DNA from: Candidatus Babeliaceae bacterium
Lineage (GTDB): Bacteria; Babelota; Babeliae; Babelales; Babelaceae
Length of the DNA stretch: 64,000 nucleotides
Assembly (NCBI GenBank): GCA_019744895.1
Contig: JAIETV010000002.1
Span: 6-64,005 of the forward strand
Reading direction: 5' to 3'
Part shown: piece by piece, positions 1 to 52,546 of the stretch
How positions within the stretch are numbered: position 1 is the first letter of the stretch
Layout of the letters: each line of letters begins with the position of its first letter
Program-made: the position numbers and the translations under genes
Notes under the pieces: model-generated
Databases searched by the model: none
Seen by the model: only the letters and a program-made list of their open reading frames with translations
Told to the model about the DNA's origin: nothing

Positions 1-950
<950 letters not shown>

Positions 951-1040
951 TCACACTATAAATTTTATTAACGATAAAAAATTATCTTACTTTGCATTAC
1001 AAGTATTTCAAAGCATAAGTTGAAATTTTGGTTTTAACCA

Positions 1041-1179
1041 TTAAAGATTTCCTGGTGCGTATAGTTGTGGGGTCACACCCGTTCCCATTCCGAATACGGC
1101 AGTTAAGTCTACAACGTCGATGATACTTACCTGGTAACGGGTTGGAAAAGTAGATAGTGCCAGGATTAAATTTAAGCTC
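1041..1179 (+). repeat. Direct repeat copy A (5S rRNA plus ~10 nt leader and start of terminator)
   Basis: TTAAAGATTTCCTGGTGCG...GTGCCAGGATTAAATTTAAGCT recurs at 1804-1943. The 5S part reads identical by eye, with a single 1-nt indel in the trailer. Confidence 0.9.
1051..1166 (+). rRNA. rrf: 5S ribosomal RNA, copy 1
   Basis: About 116 nt with the 5S hallmarks CCCGTTCCCATTCCGAAC-like (CCCGTTCCCATTCCGAATAC) and a terminal helix CCTGGTG / TGCCAGG. It lies ~100 nt after the 23S end. Ends are accurate to about 2 nt. Confidence 0.93.
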
Positions 1180-1208
1180 CAGCTCAAAAAAGCTGGGGCT
1201 TTTTTTTT
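1175..1208 (+). terminator. Rho-independent terminator after 5S copy 1
   Basis: 10-bp stem AGCTCCAGCT / AGCTGGGGCT (one G:U), loop CAAAAA, followed by T8. Confidence 0.8.
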
Positions 1209-1283
1209 AATTGATATAGTTTTGGGTGTATGGTTACGTAATGGTCAATTAATTATAGTAAGTATCTATAGGGTCTGTGTGTT

Positions 1284-1745
1284 ATGAAAAAAACTCTTTT
1301 TCTTTCGTTATTTTTTGGACTGTTTGCTTCATTTTGCCTTTCTGCTCAGGTGCAGCAGGTAATGTCTGCAAATTTAGAAAATCAAATTCATTTACCAACA
1401 GGACGACATATAATTGCAGATCTATGGGAATGTGAGAATTGTGATTATCGGACTGACATAGAAAAAGTACTGCGTGAAGCTGCCGACAAAGCCGGTGCTA
1501 CCGTGCTTAATATATATGTTCATAAATTCGACCCTAGCGGAATGACCGCAACTGTAGCCCTTTCAGAATCGCATATTACTTTTCATACCTGGCCTGATGA
1601 TGGTGGCTTTGTAGCGTGCGATATTTTTACCTGCGGTACTAACGCGTTACCAGAAAAAGGTTTAGAAGTTCTTATAGAATACTTTAAGCCTAAAAAACGT
1701 ATTATACGCATACTCGGGCGTGGACAGGCTGCAGAAAATAAATAA
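1284..1745 (+). CDS. speH: S-adenosylmethionine decarboxylase proenzyme (small pyruvoyl class-1 type) with N-terminal signal peptide
   Basis: GRHIIADLWEC, the LSESHITFHTWP self-cleavage motif (E-S) and DIFTCG match the small Thermotoga/Bacillus-type AdoMetDC. The N-terminus MKKTLFLSLFFGLFASFCLSAQ looks like a Sec signal. Confidence 0.8.
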   Translation: MKKTLFLSLFFGLFASFCLSAQVQQVMSANLENQIHLPTGRHIIADLWECENCDYRTDIEKVLREAADKAGATVLNIYVHKFDPSGMTATVALSESHITFHTWPDDGGFVACDIFTCGTNALPEKGLEVLIEYFKPKKRIIRILGRGQAAENK

Positions 1746-1803
1746 GTACTTCCGGTTTTATTAAAAGCAGTTATACTTGAAGAATAATTAGATTTCTAAA
1801 TTT

Positions 1804-1943
1804 TTAAAGATTTCCTGGTGCGTATAGTTGTGGGGTCACACCCGTTCCCATTCCGAATACGGCAGTTAAGTCTACAACGTCGATGATACTTACCTGGTAA
1901 CGGGTTGGAAAAGTAGATAGTGCCAGGATTAAAATTTAAGCTT
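1804..1943 (+). repeat. Direct repeat copy B (5S rRNA plus leader and trailer)
   Basis: Second copy of the 1041-1179 segment, 763 nt downstream. Confidence 0.9.
1814..1929 (+). rRNA. rrf: 5S ribosomal RNA, copy 2
   Basis: Reads identical to the 1051-1166 sequence. Confidence 0.93.
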
Positions 1944-1970
1944 CAGTAATAAAAAACTGAGGCTTTTTTT
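1939..1970 (+). terminator. Rho-independent terminator after 5S copy 2
   Basis: 9-bp stem AGCTTCAGT / ACTGAGGCT, loop AATAAAAA, then a T-run. The stem differs from the copy-1 terminator by a compensatory C:G to T:A change. Confidence 0.8.
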
Positions 1971-2103
1971 GTCTTTTGTTTATACTTAAACCCAGATTAC
2001 TTAAAAATTATTAAGGTAAGAGTATGTATAAGTTACAAGTTAGTACTCTTTTGCTCTTTGTGGGGTCTTTTATGTTTTTATTAGCAGAAGTTAAAGAAAG
2101 ATA

Positions 2104-2123
2104 GGGGCTTAAGAACAAGCCCC
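2104..2123. terminator. Hairpin, probable bidirectional terminator
   Basis: GGGGCTT AAGAAC AAGCCCC with T-rich flanks on both strands. It sits 6 nt beyond the stop of the minus-strand gene ending at 2130. Confidence 0.55.
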
Positions 2124-4451: not shown

Positions 4452-4862
4452 TTAATAGCGATCTTTGTTTCCACGGAAACCGCCGGTAGAACCTGAACGG
4501 AAGCCAGAACCAGGCGTGCGTTCGCGTGAACCGCCAAAACCACCTTGTGAACCGCTGCTTCTATAACCGCCTTGGCCGCCGCCATTGCTTCTAAAACCGC
4601 CTTGACCAGGTGTGCGGGGTTGTGGTGGACGTGCAGTATTAACACGAACTCTCTGTCCTTCAAGATCAGAATTATCAAGTGCATTAATAGCTTGTTGTGC
4701 TTGCTCGTCATCTTCCATGGTCAAGAAAGCAAAACCACGTGGCTCTCCAGTAAACTTGTCGGTCATGATTTTAACTGACGAGACTGCGCCAAATGCTTCG
4801 AAAAGCTTACGTAACGCGTCTTCAGTAACTGTGCGGGAGAGGTTCCCAACGTAAATATTCAT
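4452..4862 (-). CDS. RRM-type RNA-binding protein with Gly/Arg-rich tail
   Basis: RNP-2 IYVGNL and RNP-1 RGFAFLTM. The C-terminal tail is rich in RGG/GGF repeats. Confidence 0.85.
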   Translation of the reverse strand: MNIYVGNLSRTVTEDALRKLFEAFGAVSSVKIMTDKFTGEPRGFAFLTMEDDEQAQQAINALDNSDLEGQRVRVNTARPPQPRTPGQGGFRSNGGGQGGYRSSGSQGGFGGSRERTPGSGFRSGSTGGFRGNKDRY

Positions 4863-5020: not shown

Positions 5021-6196
5021 ATGAAACAATCAATAATTCAATCATCTATCCTATCTGTCGCATTGGCAATTTTTGCTATGCTTTTTGGTTCAGGTAATAT
5101 CGTTTTTCCTCTCGGTCTTGGGCGTGACATGGGTACTATGGCACTCTATGCTATGATTGGCTTTTCTTTAACGGCGGTTTTAGTGCCCTTCCTAGGTATT
5201 ATGGCCATGACGCTTTATGGGGGTAGCTATGATTTATTTTTTGAAACTATTGGTAAAATACCAGGGAAAATAGTAATTTTTTGCTGTATGCTTCTGATTG
5301 GACCCTTTTGTGTCATTCCGCGGTCGATTGCTGTTGCCCATGGTTCTTTGAGTTGGATGTTTCCACAACTTTCCATTTTTGCTTTTAGTTTAATAGCAAC
5401 CATGATTCTCTATTCACTTACAGCTCGTCAGTCGGGGCTGTTGAATATTTTAGGTAAAATTCTTGGGCCTTTAAAGCTTTTCTTATTGAGTGCTATTATT
5501 ATTAAAGGTTTTTTTGTTGCAACTAATCCCGCAAATTGCAGTTTATCAGCAGCCTCTGTGCTTACTAAAGGTGCTTTAGTAGGCTATGGAACTTTAGATC
5601 TTCTGGGAGCATTTTTCTTTACTAATATAATTCTTATTGGACTTAAGCGTAAAATTGATGATAAGCAACTTACAAATAAGCAAATTTTTTCTATGACTTT
5701 ACAAGGCGGACTTCTGGGAAGTTTGCTTTTAGGGGCAGTTTATGCTGGATTTGTTATTGTTTCTTCTTTCCAGTCAATAGTTTGCCAAGGTGTTGATGAA
5801 AAAAAATTATTAAGCGAGTTAGCATTCCAGTTGCTTGGGCAGGCTGGTGGAGTTCTTGCTAGCATTACTATCGCAGTTGCGTGTTTAACTACTGCTGTCG
5901 CGTTGACCACCGTGTTTGCAGATTATCTTTCAAAAGATTTATTAAAGAAATCGATTTCTTACCATATGGCTTTGTATGTGACATTATTAATAACATTAAT
6001 CTTTGCAAATTATGGTTTTGAAACTATCATGAGTTTGGTTGCACCCGTAATAATGATTCTTTATCCTGCGCTTATCGCATTAGCTCTTGCAAATATAATT
6101 CGTAAGATTTTTGATATTAATTTCAGTAAGTTAGCTTTTTACGGTGTATTTGCGCTTACACTTTTGATAAATTACTACCCATTATTTTTCAGGTAA
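5021..6196 (+). CDS. brnQ: Branched-chain amino acid transport system II carrier (LIVCS family)
   Basis: Polytopic membrane protein. The N-terminal FGSGNIVFPLGLG matches the BrnQ signature FGAGNxIFPP. Confidence 0.7.
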   Translation: MKQSIIQSSILSVALAIFAMLFGSGNIVFPLGLGRDMGTMALYAMIGFSLTAVLVPFLGIMAMTLYGGSYDLFFETIGKIPGKIVIFCCMLLIGPFCVIPRSIAVAHGSLSWMFPQLSIFAFSLIATMILYSLTARQSGLLNILGKILGPLKLFLLSAIIIKGFFVATNPANCSLSAASVLTKGALVGYGTLDLLGAFFFTNIILIGLKRKIDDKQLTNKQIFSMTLQGGLLGSLLLGAVYAGFVIVSSFQSIVCQGVDEKKLLSELAFQLLGQAGGVLASITIAVACLTTAVALTTVFADYLSKDLLKKSISYHMALYVTLLITLIFANYGFETIMSLVAPVIMILYPALIALALANIIRKIFDINFSKLAFYGVFALTLLINYYPLFFR

Positions 6197-10353: not shown

Positions 10354-10439
10354 GGCGAGATTCCCGAGCGGCCAAAGGGGACGGACTGTAAATCCGTTGG
10401 CATACGCCTTCGAAGGTTCGAATCCTTCTCTCGCCACCA
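10354..10439 (+). tRNA. tRNA-Tyr (GTA)
   Basis: Acceptor GGCGAGA/TCTCGCC, anticodon loop CTGTAAA, long variable arm, CCA encoded. Confidence 0.92.
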
Positions 10440-10560
10440 TCTTGGGTTACTCAAGCCAGATCTAATGCCATTCTAAAAGTATTTTTTAGAATAGCGTTAC
10501 GAAGTAAAAAAATTTGTTGCTTACCTGTTCTTAGAAAAGTACGGGAGAATTGAAATTAAC

Positions 10561-10636
10561 GCGGGAATAGCTCAATTGGTAGAGTGGCAGCCTTCCAAGC
10601 TGTAGGTTGCGGGTTCGAGTCCCGTTTCCCGCTCCA
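10561..10636 (+). tRNA. tRNA-Gly (TCC)
   Basis: Acceptor GCGGGAA/TTCCCGC, anticodon loop CTTCCAA, GGTTCGAGTCC T-arm, CCA encoded. Confidence 0.92.
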
Positions 10637-10651
10637 GATAATAATTTAGGC

Positions 10652-10727
10652 GCTGGCGTAGCTCAGTTGGTAGAGCAGCTGATTTGTAATCAGCAGGTCG
10701 TCGGTTCAAATCCGACCGCCAGCTCCA
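10652..10727 (+). tRNA. tRNA-Thr (TGT)
   Basis: Acceptor GCTGGCG/CGCCAGC, anticodon loop TTTGTAA, CCA encoded. Confidence 0.92.
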
Positions 10728-10811
10728 TACAATTTCATGCAATTTGAAGTTGTTTTTTGTTATTTTTTCGATTAATATTAATACATTAAGATCAAAAAGA
10801 TAAAGACCTTT

Positions 10812-10888
10812 GCCCACGTAGCTCAGTTGGTTAGAGCACTTCCTTGGTAAGGGAGAGGTCACCGGTTCGAATCCGGTCGCGGGCTCCA
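10812..10888 (+). tRNA. tRNA-Thr (GGT)
   Basis: Acceptor GCCCACG/CGCGGGC (one mismatch), anticodon loop TTGGTAA, CCA encoded. Confidence 0.88.
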
Positions 10889-10927
10889 AAGGCTTCTTAT
10901 TAAGAGTTTTTAACTACGCAGGTTGCC

Positions 10928-11086
10928 ATGGCAAAAGAGAATCGAATCGTTATTAAGCTTAAAAGCTCGGAAAGTCCTCACGTATACTGGACAACCAAAA
11001 ATAAAAATAATACCACGGGTCGCTTAGAAATTAAAAAATTTGACCCGGTAGTTCGTAAGCATGTGGTATATAGAGAATCTAAGTAG
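10928..11086 (+). CDS. rpmG: 50S ribosomal protein L33 (Cys-less form)
   Basis: Not in the ORF track because it is 52 aa. My translation is [52 protein letters not shown]. The YxTTKNKxNT...LExKKFxPxxRKHxxxxExK pattern is L33, and the position upstream of tRNA-Trp/secE/nusG is classical. Confidence 0.88.
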
Positions 11087-11096
11087 AGTATCATGA

Positions 11097-11172
11097 AGGC
11101 CAGTAGCTCTAACGGCAGAGCGGCAGACTCCAAATCTGCGGGTTGGGGGTTCGAATCCCTCCTGGCCTGCCA
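11097..11172 (+). tRNA. tRNA-Trp (CCA)
   Basis: Acceptor AGGCCAG/CTGGCCT, anticodon loop CTCCAAA, CCA encoded. Confidence 0.92.
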
Positions 11173-52422: not shown

Positions 52423-52470
52423 GTTTTCATATTGTAGAAAGTTTCCATTCTGATATACTTGAAGGGTGTT

Positions 52471-52546
52471 GCCGATGTAGCTCAGCTGGTAGAGCACCTG
52501 ATTCGTAATCAGTAGGTCGGCGGTTCAAATCCGCTCATCGGCTCCA
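52471..52546 (+). tRNA. tRNA-Thr (CGT)
   Basis: Acceptor GCCGATG/CATCGGC, anticodon loop TTCGTAA, CCA encoded. Confidence 0.88.

What the first reader, a model, noticed from the sequence alone, without database searches (positions are those of the whole stretch)
1041..1970. Two identical 5S rRNA genes bracket a protein-coding gene at the end of the rRNA operon
The 116-nt 5S sequence, plus ~10 nt of leader and the first part of the trailer, occurs twice (1051-1166 and 1814-1929) and reads identical by eye. The copies are 763 nt apart, and the only thing between them is the 153-codon speH-like ORF.

Each copy has its own hairpin + T-run terminator. The two stems differ by a compensatory C:G to T:A change. 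That suggests both terminators are functional and maintained, and argues against a recent assembly artefact.

An rRNA operon ending 23S-5S-CDS-5S is unusual. The direct repeats could excise or amplify the ORF by homologous recombination. Read-through of terminator 1 would place the ORF under the strong rRNA promoter.
Basis: seen in the sequence. Interest (0 to 1): 0.65.

Follow-up and report, generated by a model that had tools for sequence, protein, structure and literature searches.

The report
Protein gene between two 5S genes
At the end of this bacterium's ribosomal RNA operon, a small enzyme gene sits between two working copies of the 5S rRNA gene; the layout is real, old and shared by related amoeba-parasite bacteria (Dependentiae), making it an unusual variant of a known theme and not an assembly error.

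Summary
Two 5S rRNA genes (1051-1166 and 1814-1929) are identical, including 10 nt of leader. They bracket a 153-codon AdoMetDC-family gene, and each is followed by its own hairpin + T-run terminator.

This is not an artefact. The order 23S-5S-CDS-5S recurs in 7 other Dependentiae/Babeliaceae lineages from independent assemblies, one of them a complete chromosome. In all 12 lineages where the upstream side is visible, the gene lies directly after a 5S. Five lineages lack the second 5S, and one has 5S-5S-CDS.

The second copy is old. Its terminator and trailer are orthologous across relatives, and in five relatives it carries a diagnostic T12C that this window lacks. The perfect identity here therefore reflects recent gene conversion (about 1804-1942), not recent duplication. 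Compensatory changes keep the second copy's 5S fold.

A strong terminator and a conserved promoter-like box separate 5S#1 from the gene. No terminator separates the gene from 5S#2. My model is therefore: rrn ends at T1, and the gene plus 5S#2 end at T2. This model is inferred and untested.

The enzyme carries a clade-specific signal-peptide-like extension.

Verdict: a new variant of a known kind (compare E. coli rrnD 5S-tRNA-5S), of moderate interest.

The parts
1..954 (+). 3' part of the 23S rRNA gene (model positions 1976-2925)
   Evidence: Rfam RF02541, 993 bits
955..1050 (+). 23S-5S spacer, ending in the conserved 5S leader ...CCATTAAAGATTT
   Evidence: Nearly identical to relative L099, with 3 substitutions and 2 single-base indels in about 96 nt. 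The leader AAAGATTT is conserved before every 5S#1.
1051..1166 (+). 5S rRNA gene, copy 1
   Evidence: Rfam RF00001, 70.2 bits. 100% identical to L099 copy 1. Consensus fold has 34 pairs.
1174..1209 (+). Intrinsic terminator T1: 11-bp stem, 6-nt loop, T9
   Evidence: -18.3 kcal/mol, z -3.95. A hairpin + T-run follows the 5S immediately upstream of the CDS in every relative where it is visible.
1212..1220 (+). Extended -10-like box TGATATAGT, the candidate promoter of the CDS. An alternative -10 is TATGGT at 1229-1234.
   Evidence: Conserved in L006 and L007, with TGATATACT in L087, but degraded in L099, the closest relative (TGATAAAAT). The same motif lies 11 nt upstream of tRNA-Thr at 52471. 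Function inferred, not shown.
1284..1745 (+). CDS, 153 aa: class 1b AdoMetDC/SpeD-fold pyruvoyl enzyme. It has an N-terminal signal-peptide-like segment (MKKTLFLSLFFGLFASFCLSAQ) and a CxxC motif (C50, C53).
   Evidence: dN/dS is 0.09 against L099. Processing and catalytic residues S96, H101 and C117 are conserved.
1746..1813 (+). CDS-5S#2 spacer. It has no terminator-like structure. It contains a conserved -10-like TATACT (1772-1777), 36 nt upstream of 5S#2.
   Evidence: The fold is no better than shuffles (z +1.0). The TATACT/TATAAT box is conserved in L087, L007, L090, L099 and L001, with TGn in front in three of them.
1814..1929 (+). 5S rRNA gene, copy 2
   Evidence: Rfam RF00001, 70.2 bits. 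Identical to copy 1. Orthologous copies in 7 other lineages.
1804..1942 (+). Inferred gene-conversion tract (copy 1 overwriting copy 2): leader G1809, 5S position 12 (T1825), and the first half of the trailer
   Evidence: In L099, L087, L007, L090 and L097, copy 2 has the leader AAAAATTT / ATAAATTT and 5S C12. The window's copy 2 has the copy-1 states.
1938..1972 (+). Intrinsic terminator T2: 10-bp stem, 8-nt loop, T7
   Evidence: -13.0 kcal/mol, z -4.2. The 60-nt trailer is 77-87% identical to the T2 trailers of relatives but only 75% to the window's own T1 trailer.
1981..1986 (+). -10-like TATACT after T2. In relatives it reads TGnTATACT and lies upstream of a DUF1653 gene.
2024..2104 (+). 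26-codon ORF, a relic of the N-terminus of the DUF1653-family gene that follows T2 in relatives
   Evidence: Window MYKLQVSTLLLFVGSFMFLLAEVKER compared with L007 MYKFLKSNTWLLFLGSYMPLLAEVEVG... (99 aa)

Best explanation
This is a genuine, vertically inherited layout of the distal end of the rRNA operon in a clade of Dependentiae (TM6; Ca. Babeliaceae and neighbours). The one cultivated member is reported to have a single rrn operon. In this clade an AdoMetDC-fold pyruvoyl-enzyme gene always lies directly after the operon's 5S gene and terminator.

In an ancestor of at least eight sampled lineages, the module 'leader + 5S + intrinsic terminator (+ following -10 box)' was duplicated to the far side of that gene. 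This gave 23S-5S#1-T1-CDS-5S#2-T2.

The second copy is a functional 5S gene kept by selection. It evolves in concert with copy 1. In the window's lineage a recent gene-conversion event (about 1804-1942) erased the copy-2-specific states, which is why the copies are identical here. The copy is dispensable, because it has been lost in several lineages.

Likely transcription (inferred):
- The rrn transcript ends mostly at T1.
- The CDS starts from its own extended -10 promoter just after T1.
- With no terminator after the stop codon, the CDS transcript runs through 5S#2 to T2.
- 5S#2 may also have its own -10 box.
- 5S#2 therefore supplies extra 5S rRNA and also acts as the 3' processing/termination module of the mRNA.

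Shown: the anatomy, its conservation, the orthology of copy 2, structural constraint, and purifying selection on the CDS. Inferred: the gene-conversion tract, the promoters, the co-transcription, and the export and substrate of the enzyme.
For: Anatomy.

Conservation of 5S-CDS-5S:
- L001-5/L008 (L008), L007 (a complete 1.30-Mb Babeliaceae chromosome) and L009, L087 and L090, L099, L097 and L098.
- A 5S lies immediately upstream of the CDS in 12 of 12 lineages where that side is visible. This includes L094 and L095, whose contigs start inside a 5S.
- All four contigs found by a CDS-blind 5S pattern scan carry the CDS.
- No 5S lies within about 4 kb of 76 non-Dependentiae homologues.

Age of the duplication:
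- The T2 trailers are orthologous. The window's T2 trailer is 77-87% identical to other T2 trailers and 75% to its own T1 trailer. Its T1 trailer is 90-97% identical to other T1 trailers.
- T12C is shared by copy 2 of L099, L087, L007, L090 and L097.
- dS is about 1.05 between the window and L099.

Gene conversion:
- The window's copy 2 has the copy-1 leader G and T12.
- Within-genome sharing of lineage-specific states also points to concerted evolution: A86G in both copies of L007 and of L087, and the 'B-type' pairs in both copies of L001.

Function of copy 2:
- Full-length Rfam hits of 68-74 bits.
- 34 conserved pairs, 5 with compensatory changes, including C81U/G90A in L009 copy 2.

Transcription model:
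- T1 is strong and T2 is good. There is no structure in 1746-1813.
- Conserved TGnTATA(G/C)T boxes.
- The L009 spacer between stop codon and 5S#2 is only 28 nt.

The CDS is real: dN/dS is 0.09, and SD-like GGAG/GGGG sequences occur in relatives.
Against: - No expression data exist. The promoters are consensus-level guesses, and TGNTATANT is not enriched in the window as a whole (14 found, 16.4 expected).
- The TGATATAGT box after T1 is degraded in L099, the closest relative (TGATAAAAT). This weakens the case that it is the CDS promoter.
- The conversion inference rests on two or three informative sites.
- Some lineages complicate a single-duplication history. In L001 the two trailers resemble each other more than any orthologue. 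The L009 copy-2 trailer is not clearly orthologous. L093 has a tandem 5S-5S.
- The CDS is mosaic between lineages (L087 vs L007), and L006 carries a relic of a second paralogue.
- Most relatives were found through the CDS, so CDS-less variants would have been missed. The unbiased scan returned only 4 contigs.
- The rrn copy number of this genome is unknown.
Confidence: 0.7

Rival explanations
1. Assembly artefact: the second 5S copy, or the placement of the ORF between two copies, comes from mis-joining at a repeat.
For: The copies are 133 nt identical, which is longer than typical short-read k-mers. Several metagenomic contigs of relatives do break at the 5S: L004, L087, L094 and L095.
Against: The same order occurs in 7 other lineages from independent assemblers and sources. 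In several of them the two copies differ and so cannot be collapsed or mis-joined: L099 by 3 nt, L009 by about 8 nt, L001 by about 4 nt. One is a complete chromosome from the Microflora Danica series, a project that used deep Nanopore long reads. That this particular MAG comes from that data set is inferred from its name. The two copies have different, orthologously conserved flanks. The only alternative path through the repeat leaves a 763-bp circle.
Confidence: 0.02
2. Single transcription unit: 16S-23S-5S#1-CDS-5S#2 is one operon driven by the rRNA promoters. T1 is a leaky attenuator, the ORF is expressed by read-through, and 5S#2/T2 is the true operon end.
For: The CDS is always within 81-134 nt of a 5S. 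In L093 and L095 only about 30-40 nt separate the terminator from the start codon, which leaves little room for a full promoter. There is no terminator between the CDS and 5S#2. The tight linkage is specific to this clade.
Against: T1 is a canonical strong intrinsic terminator (11 bp, U9, -18.3 kcal/mol), and an equivalent follows the 5S upstream of the CDS in every lineage. A conserved extended -10-like box follows it. By established knowledge of E. coli, rrn antitermination mainly counters Rho-dependent termination, not intrinsic termination. That knowledge has not been tested for Dependentiae.
Confidence: 0.2
3. Recent, lineage-private duplication: the second 5S arose recently in this genome, hence the perfect identity. 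The similar layouts of relatives are independent events.
For: The copies are 100% identical, including 10 nt of leader. In L001 the two trailers resemble each other more than they resemble orthologues. L093 shows that 5S duplications recur.
Against: The window's T2 and downstream trailer align with those of L099, L007, L087, L090 and L097 better than with its own T1. The insertion point, the IGR2 motifs (GTACTTCC, TTATACTTAAAG) and the downstream DUF1653 relic are shared. The terminators are only 82% identical while the 5S is 100%. That is the signature of conversion over an old duplicate.
Confidence: 0.05
4. The second 5S is a non-functional relic or passenger, retained only because it carries the terminator used by the CDS.
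For: It has been lost in at least 5 lineages without loss of the CDS. There is no direct expression evidence.
Against: It is full length, its Rfam scores equal or exceed copy 1 in some genomes (74.0 vs 72.4 bits in L001), and it shows compensatory substitutions and no indels over lineages with dS of about 1. A neutral 116-nt relic would have decayed the way the L006 paralogue relic did.
Confidence: 0.1

Closest known systems
E. coli rrnD distal region (23S-5S-tRNA-Thr-5S)
   Same: A second 5S gene at the distal end of an rrn operon, separated from the first by another gene (PMC4696680).
   Different: In rrnD the intervening gene is a tRNA co-processed from the same precursor. Here it is a 153-codon protein gene. 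An intrinsic terminator precedes it and a promoter-like box follows that terminator. The layout is conserved across a family-level clade that probably has a single rrn operon.
Concerted evolution / gene conversion among rRNA gene copies
   Same: Paralogous rRNA copies are homogenised within a genome while their flanks diverge. Here the 5S and leader are identical but the terminators are 82% identical.
   Different: The process operates here between two 116-nt genes only 763 nt apart at one locus. Orthologues show when the conversion happened: after the split from the L099 lineage.
Class 1b S-adenosylmethionine decarboxylase (SpeD/SpeH; T. maritima 1TLU/1VR7, B. subtilis type) and its neofunctionalised SpeDA/SpeDC relatives
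   Same: Pfam and NCBIfam matches lie above their cutoffs. PDB hits reach 3e-21. The ES|H self-processing site, His+5 and the FTCG Cys are conserved, and the HTWP Pro is retained.
   Different: The protein carries a 35-65-aa N-terminal extension with a signal-peptide-like hydrophobic segment and a CxxC motif. Both are absent from non-Dependentiae homologues. The gene is always glued to the 5S. The substrate (AdoMet, Arg or Orn) cannot be assigned from sequence (PMC10407285).
rrnB 5S + T1T2 cassette placed downstream of cloned genes in pKK223-3/pTrc-type expression vectors (from my own knowledge)
   Same: A CDS is followed by a 5S gene plus an intrinsic terminator that ends and caps the transcript.
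   Different: The vector cassette is an artificial construct. Whether the natural 5S#2 stabilises or processes the mRNA here is untested.

Membership tests
Bacterial 5S rRNA (Rfam RF00001), both copies | Covariance-model score above the gathering threshold over the full model | tested here: met
   70.2 bits for each copy against a gathering score of 38, model positions 1-120
Bacterial 5S rRNA (Rfam RF00001), both copies | Three-helix-junction secondary structure maintained by covariation | tested here: met
   RNAalifold on 19 copies gives 34 pairs. Five have compensatory double changes, including changes specific to second copies (L009_2 and L093_2: C81U/G90A).
Bacterial 5S rRNA (Rfam RF00001), both copies | Transcribed, processed and incorporated into ribosomes | not testable with these tools
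   No RNA data. Copies 1 and 2 are distinguishable at position 12 in L007, L087 and L099 but not in this window.
Intrinsic (Rho-independent) terminator, T1 and T2 | GC-rich hairpin immediately followed by a U-run | tested here: met
   T1 has an 11-bp stem and U9 (-18.3 kcal/mol). T2 has a 10-bp stem and U7 (-13.0 kcal/mol). Both have z near -4 against shuffles. Both are conserved with compensatory changes in relatives.
Intrinsic (Rho-independent) terminator, T1 and T2 | Measured termination of transcription | not testable with these tools
   Needs Term-seq or in vitro transcription.
Gene belonging to the rrn operon (co-transcribed with rRNA, like the distal tRNAs of E. coli rrn operons) | No terminator between the last rRNA gene and the gene in question | tested here: not met
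   A strong terminator, T1, lies between 5S#1 and the CDS in this window and in all relatives. The CDS is therefore not filed as an operon member. The CDS-5S#2 pair has no terminator between its two genes.
Class 1b AdoMetDC/SpeD (PF02675; TIGR03330) | Profile match above the curated cutoffs | tested here: met
   PF02675: 106 bits against 25. TIGR03330: 108.7 bits against 75.65. PDB 1VR7/1TLU: 3e-21.
Class 1b AdoMetDC/SpeD (PF02675; TIGR03330) | Self-processing Ser (T. maritima S63) plus His68 and Cys83 equivalents | tested here: met
   S96 (in LSES|H), H101 and C117 are invariant or nearly invariant in the 18-sequence alignment. Their roles are taken from PMC10407285.
Class 1b AdoMetDC/SpeD (PF02675; TIGR03330) | Pro that separates bona fide AdoMetDC from SpeDA arginine decarboxylases | tested here: inconclusive
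   The HTWP proline (P104) is invariant. I infer, but could not verify without the figure, that this is the marker Pro of PMC10407285.
Class 1b AdoMetDC/SpeD (PF02675; TIGR03330) | AdoMet decarboxylase activity, and a partner spermidine synthase in the genome | not testable with these tools
   Only 64 kb of the genome is available, and no enzyme assay is possible.
Sec-type signal peptide (exported protein) | Positively charged n-region, a 10-16-residue hydrophobic h-region, and small residues at -1/-3 | tested here: inconclusive
   Read by eye: MKK / TLFLSLFFGLFASFCL / SA|Q. The architecture, not the sequence, is conserved in about 16 of 18 aligned homologues. It is absent from the Scalindua, Bacillus and other homologues. 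No signal-peptide predictor was available.

The most novel reading that the evidence does not exclude
The 5S-CDS-5S unit is a functional cassette, not an accident of duplication. Under this reading, an exported AdoMetDC-fold enzyme, possibly a host-directed effector of these amoeba parasites that destroys or converts host SAM or arginine, is hard-wired to ribosome synthesis by sitting inside the rrn terminus. 5S#2 then acts in cis as the mRNA's 3' processing and stabilising element. The near-universal 5S arms would also serve as homology arms that let divergent enzyme alleles be swapped between co-infecting lineages. The mosaic CDS in L087 vs L007 and the paralogue relic in L006 fit that idea.
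Probability: 0.12. Interest if true: 0.7.

Novelty: new variant of a known kind. Interest (0 to 1): 0.45.

Why it matters
- It documents a protein-coding gene stably embedded between two functional 5S rRNA genes, conserved over lineages whose synonymous sites are saturated. I found no description of this. The Babela massiliensis genome paper speaks of 'one typical rRNA operon', and no paper in the searched library mentions Dependentiae together with AdoMetDC.
- It gives a clean natural example of short-tract gene conversion between rRNA paralogues, dated by orthologues.
- It warns that 5S copy number and contig breaks at the rrn terminus in Dependentiae MAGs are biological and not purely technical.
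- It flags a clade-specific, apparently exported pyruvoyl decarboxylase. This is a testable candidate for host interaction or polyamine biology in an almost uncultured parasitic phylum.
- It does not overturn any principle of rRNA operon organisation.

Tried and rejected
1. The exact-sequence look-up of the window protein found nothing on record. The source genome itself could not be identified. It is not among the GTDB representatives returned.
2. I tested whether the 196-aa gene after 5S#2 in L001 is a diverged second AdoMetDC, which would imply a [5S-CDS]x2 duplication. A weak tblastn hit (E = 0.03) was not confirmed by hhalign (probability 1%). Rejected.
3. I looked for a riboswitch or other known RNA in the 5' UTR and spacers. 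Rfam found nothing at gathering thresholds apart from rRNA and tRNA.
4. I tested window-wide enrichment of the extended -10 motif as support for the promoter calls. It is not enriched (14 found, 16.4 expected). Only positional evidence remains: the box sits before tRNA-Thr at 52471, before the CDS, and is conserved in relatives.
5. The standard sigma-70 scan did not call a promoter between T1 and the CDS at its 9-of-12 threshold.
6. Literature searches for a prior description returned nothing specific. The terms were Dependentiae + 5S/rRNA operon, Dependentiae + AdoMetDC, and two 5S genes + protein-coding gene.
7. I could not resolve a single clean history for the duplication. The terminator stem types and the 5S 'A/B-type' states are distributed as if copies 1 and 2 had exchanged sequence repeatedly.
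Full report
**1. The observation**

The window starts inside a bacterial 23S rRNA gene (1-954). It contains two 5S rRNA genes, at 1051-1165/6 and 1814-1928/9, each scoring 70.2 bits against a gathering score of 38. A 133-nt direct repeat (1041-1173 = 1804-1936, 763-nt spacing) covers 10 nt of leader, the whole 5S and the first 7 nt of trailer. Its only blemish is a 1-nt A indel after the 5S.

The terminator parts are 82% identical. Both are called as intrinsic terminators and both fold far better than shuffles: T1 at -18.3 kcal/mol (z -3.95) and T2 at -13.0 kcal/mol (z -4.2). Written pair by pair, T1 (AAGCUCCAGCU/AGCUGGGGCUU) and T2 (AAGCUUCAGU/ACUGAGGCUU) differ by two C:G to U:A double changes, not one.

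Between the copies lies one real ORF, 1284-1745 (153 aa). It is a class 1b AdoMetDC-family protein: PF02675 at 1.6e-30, TIGR03330 at 108.7 bits against a cutoff of 75.65, and PDB 1VR7/1TLU at 3e-21. The description is therefore correct at the stated coordinates.

**2. The layout is not an artefact and is conserved**

The protein has only 23 detectable relatives among 5.8 billion protein clusters, the best at 70-73% identity. I fetched their contigs, scanned one genome per species, and located rRNA genes with Rfam and blastn. The lineage is Dependentiae (TM6). L007 is a complete 1.30-Mb 'Candidatus Babeliaceae' chromosome, and L008 is a Dependentiae bog MAG.

Distribution of the layout among relatives:
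- **23S-5S-CDS-5S** is present in L001-5/L008, L007, L009/L089 and L087. L090, whose contig starts in the CDS, shows CDS-5S.
- **A CDS-blind scan** of metagenome contigs with a 52-nt 5S pattern returned four contigs, and all carry the gene. L099 has 23S-5S-CDS-5S, its 5S#1 is 100% identical to the window's and its protein is 80% identical. L097 and L098 show CDS-5S. L096 is the same contig as L003.
- **Five lineages have 5S-CDS with no second 5S** in at least 2 kb downstream: L006, L088, L010/L091/L092, L094 and L095. The last two contigs begin inside a 5S.
- **One more distant lineage (L093)** has 23S-5S-5S-CDS.

The gene thus sits directly after a 5S + terminator in all 12 lineages where the upstream side is visible, and a second 5S follows it in 8 of 14 lineages.

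In several genomes the two copies differ: by 3 nt in L099, about 8 nt in L009 and about 4 nt in L001. They cannot be assembly duplicates there. The MFD-series chromosome belongs, judging by its name, to a deep Nanopore long-read project. The closest non-Dependentiae homologues (Scalindua and other Planctomycetota, Bacillus and others; 76 loci) have no 5S within about 4 kb. The linkage is therefore clade-specific.

**3. The duplication is old and the identity is recent**

- **Trailers are orthologous by position.** The 60 nt after the window's 5S#2 are 77-87% identical to the copy-2 trailers of L007, L097, L087, L099 and L090, but only 75% to the window's own copy-1 trailer. The copy-1 trailer is 90-97% identical to the copy-1 trailers of L099, L087, L007 and L006.
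- **Copy 2 has a diagnostic substitution.** In L099, L087, L007, L090 and L097 it carries T12C, in an unpaired loop, which no copy 1 has. Its leader reads AAAAATTT or ATAAATTT, where every copy 1 reads AAAGATTT.
- **The window is the exception.** Its copy 2 has the copy-1 states at both sites. It also has the copy-1-like beginning of the trailer (TTTAAGCT rather than TTAAAAGCC). Yet its T2 loop, 3' arm and downstream sequence remain T2-type.
- **The window and L099 are far apart.** The CDS shows dS of about 1.05 between them, with dN/dS of 0.09.

The simplest reading is an ancient duplication of the leader-5S-terminator module, followed in the window's lineage by a short gene-conversion tract (about 1804/1809 to 1942) copied from copy 1.

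Concerted evolution is also visible elsewhere. A86G is present in both copies of L007 and of L087. The two covarying 'B-type' pairs (C67:G104 and G79:C92) are present in both copies of L001. In its sister L009, copy 1 has mainly the B-type states (with U92) and copy 2 the A-type states.

The history is not fully clean. In L001 the two trailers are closer to each other than to any orthologue. The L009 copy-2 trailer has no clear orthologue. L093 has an independent tandem duplicate.

**4. Both 5S copies look functional**

All second copies are full length and score 68-74 bits. The consensus fold of 19 copies has 34 pairs, 5 with compensatory double substitutions. These include C81U/G90A in the second copies of L009 and L093. 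A neutral relic would not survive at dS of about 1. By contrast, the relic of a second enzyme paralogue in L006 has decayed to about 25 recognisable codons.

**5. Likely transcription (inferred)**

- **T1 ends the rrn transcript.** T1 is a textbook strong terminator (11 bp, U9), and an equivalent follows the 5S upstream of the CDS in every lineage.
- **The CDS probably has its own promoter.** Three bases after the T1 T-run comes TGATATAGT (1212-1220), an extended -10-type box. It is conserved in L006 and L007, and reads TGATATACT in L087. In L099, the closest relative, it is degraded to TGATAAAAT. The same motif sits 11 nt upstream of tRNA-Thr at 52471. It is not enriched window-wide, and the generic sigma-70 scan did not call it. 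This is a lead, not a demonstration.
- **The CDS is translated.** SD-like GGGG/GGAG sequences precede the start codon in relatives.
- **The mRNA should run into 5S#2.** Downstream of the stop codon, 1746-1813 has no terminator-like structure (z +1.0). The mRNA should therefore run through 5S#2 and end at T2. In L009 only 28 nt separate the stop codon from 5S#2.
- **5S#2 may also have its own promoter.** A conserved TATACT/TATAAT box (window 1772-1777; TGn-prefixed in L007, L087 and L090) lies about 30-36 nt upstream of 5S#2.
- **A third box follows T2.** It lies at 1981-1986 and precedes a DUF1653 gene in relatives.

My model is therefore three adjacent units: rrn...5S#1-T1 | P-CDS-(P)-5S#2-T2 | P-downstream gene. 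The rival, that T1 is leaky and the whole locus is one rRNA-promoter-driven operon, cannot be excluded without 3'-end and 5'-end mapping. The very short terminator-to-ATG distances in L093 and L095 (about 30-40 nt) keep it alive.

**6. The enzyme**

The self-processing Ser (S96, in LSES|H), His+5 (H101) and the FTCG Cys (C117) are conserved. These are the residues essential in T. maritima AdoMetDC (PMC10407285). The HTWP proline is invariant. The same paper shows that AdoMetDC homologues have repeatedly become arginine or ornithine decarboxylases, so the substrate cannot be assigned from sequence.

The Dependentiae proteins are distinct in two ways:
- They carry a 35-65-aa N-terminal extension with a signal-peptide-like n/h/c layout and a variable linker.
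- They carry a CxxC motif (C50, C53).

Both features are absent from Scalindua, Bacillus and other homologues, which start at MEAFGRH. I infer, without a predictor or an experiment, that the enzyme is exported. That would be odd for a SAM-dependent enzyme and interesting for an intracellular parasite.

**7. Comparison with what is known**

[quoted passage not shown] Homogenisation of rRNA paralogues by gene conversion is well established. The new points are three: the intervening gene is a protein gene with its own terminator and promoter context; the layout is conserved across a family-level clade; and the clade probably has a single rrn operon.

On that last point, B. massiliensis is described as having 'one typical rRNA operon' (PMC4378268). 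No paper in the library links Dependentiae with AdoMetDC. I class the finding as a new variant of a known kind.

**8. Verdict**

The locus is real, maintained and unusual, but the copies are identical because of gene conversion over an old duplicate, not because of a recent event. The ORF probably has its own promoter. No recombinational excision or amplification product was seen. Interest is moderate (0.45).

Noticed in passing
window 1284-1400 (residues 1-38 of the CDS) and C50/C53; alignment A2: All Dependentiae members of this AdoMetDC clade carry a signal-peptide-like N-terminal extension with a variable linker, and a CxxC motif. The Scalindua, Bacillus and other homologues start directly at the catalytic domain (MEAFGRH...). 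This suggests an exported pyruvoyl decarboxylase, which would be unusual for a SAM-using enzyme.
   Followed up: partly
L087:262-756 vs L007:4001-4543 (and window 1360-1640): The CDS is mosaic between close relatives. L087 and L007 are 95-100% identical in 5S#1 and IGR1, and 82-92% in the signal-peptide region. They are 88-90% identical at the 3' end and 100% in 5S#2. Across the catalytic core they are only 30-78% identical. There L087 carries the 'short-loop' allele of the window and L006, and L007 carries the allele with an 8-aa insertion (VxVDGxMVQ). This points to recombination between two allele or paralogue types.
   Followed up: partly
L006:1151-1237: About 80 nt downstream of its intact short-loop CDS, L006 carries a decayed fragment (…IDGRLVQGMTGTVIFAEWP…) of the other, insertion-bearing paralogue. 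L006 has no second 5S. This is evidence of a former tandem gene pair or of an allele replacement at this locus.
   Followed up: partly
L093:454-569 and 689-804: A more distant lineage (23S end 82% identical) has two tandem 5S genes before the CDS (23S-5S-5S-CDS). They differ at about 6 sites, including a compensatory pair, and each has its own hairpin terminator.
   Followed up: no
window 2024-2104 (+): A 26-codon ORF (MYKLQVSTLLLFVGSFMFLLAEVKER) matches only the signal-peptide-like N-terminus of the 99-aa DUF1653 protein that follows T2 in L007 (4817-5116). The DUF1653 domain itself is missing from the window. It is either a truncated relic or a small hydrophobic peptide. A bidirectional-looking hairpin follows at 2103-2124.
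   Followed up: partly
window 1270-1275 vs L099:470-500: The window has lost 19 nt of the 5' UTR. In L099, L006, L009, L001, L088 and L087 these bases form a conserved hairpin (CTTTGT-N4-ACAAAG) just upstream of the SD-like GGGG. The hairpin's function is unknown, and it is evidently dispensable.
   Followed up: no
window 955-1210 vs L099:161-415: The 23S-5S spacer, 5S#1 and T1 are almost identical between the window and L099 (about 6 differences in about 255 nt). Synonymous sites of the adjacent CDS are saturated (dS about 1.05). This indicates either strong constraint on the non-coding rrn tail or recent exchange of the rrn end between lineages.
   Followed up: no
window 52451-52459 and 52471-52546: An extended -10-type box, TGATATACT, lies 11 nt upstream of tRNA-Thr(CGT). 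It is the same motif type as the boxes after T1, before 5S#2 and after T2. It may be the common promoter form in this genome.
   Followed up: partly
window 10354-11172 and 62754-63235: There are two tRNA clusters on the + strand: Tyr-Gly-Thr-Thr-Trp, and Val-Asn-Asp. All 10 tRNA genes and the rRNA genes in the window are on the + strand.
   Followed up: no
window 4452-4862 (-): A 136-aa RRM-domain RNA-binding protein with a Gly/Arg/Ser-rich tail. It is syntenic in relative L091, next to a branched-chain amino-acid transporter (5021-6196) and a DUF2177 membrane protein (2486-2953). RRM proteins are uncommon in bacteria.
   Followed up: no
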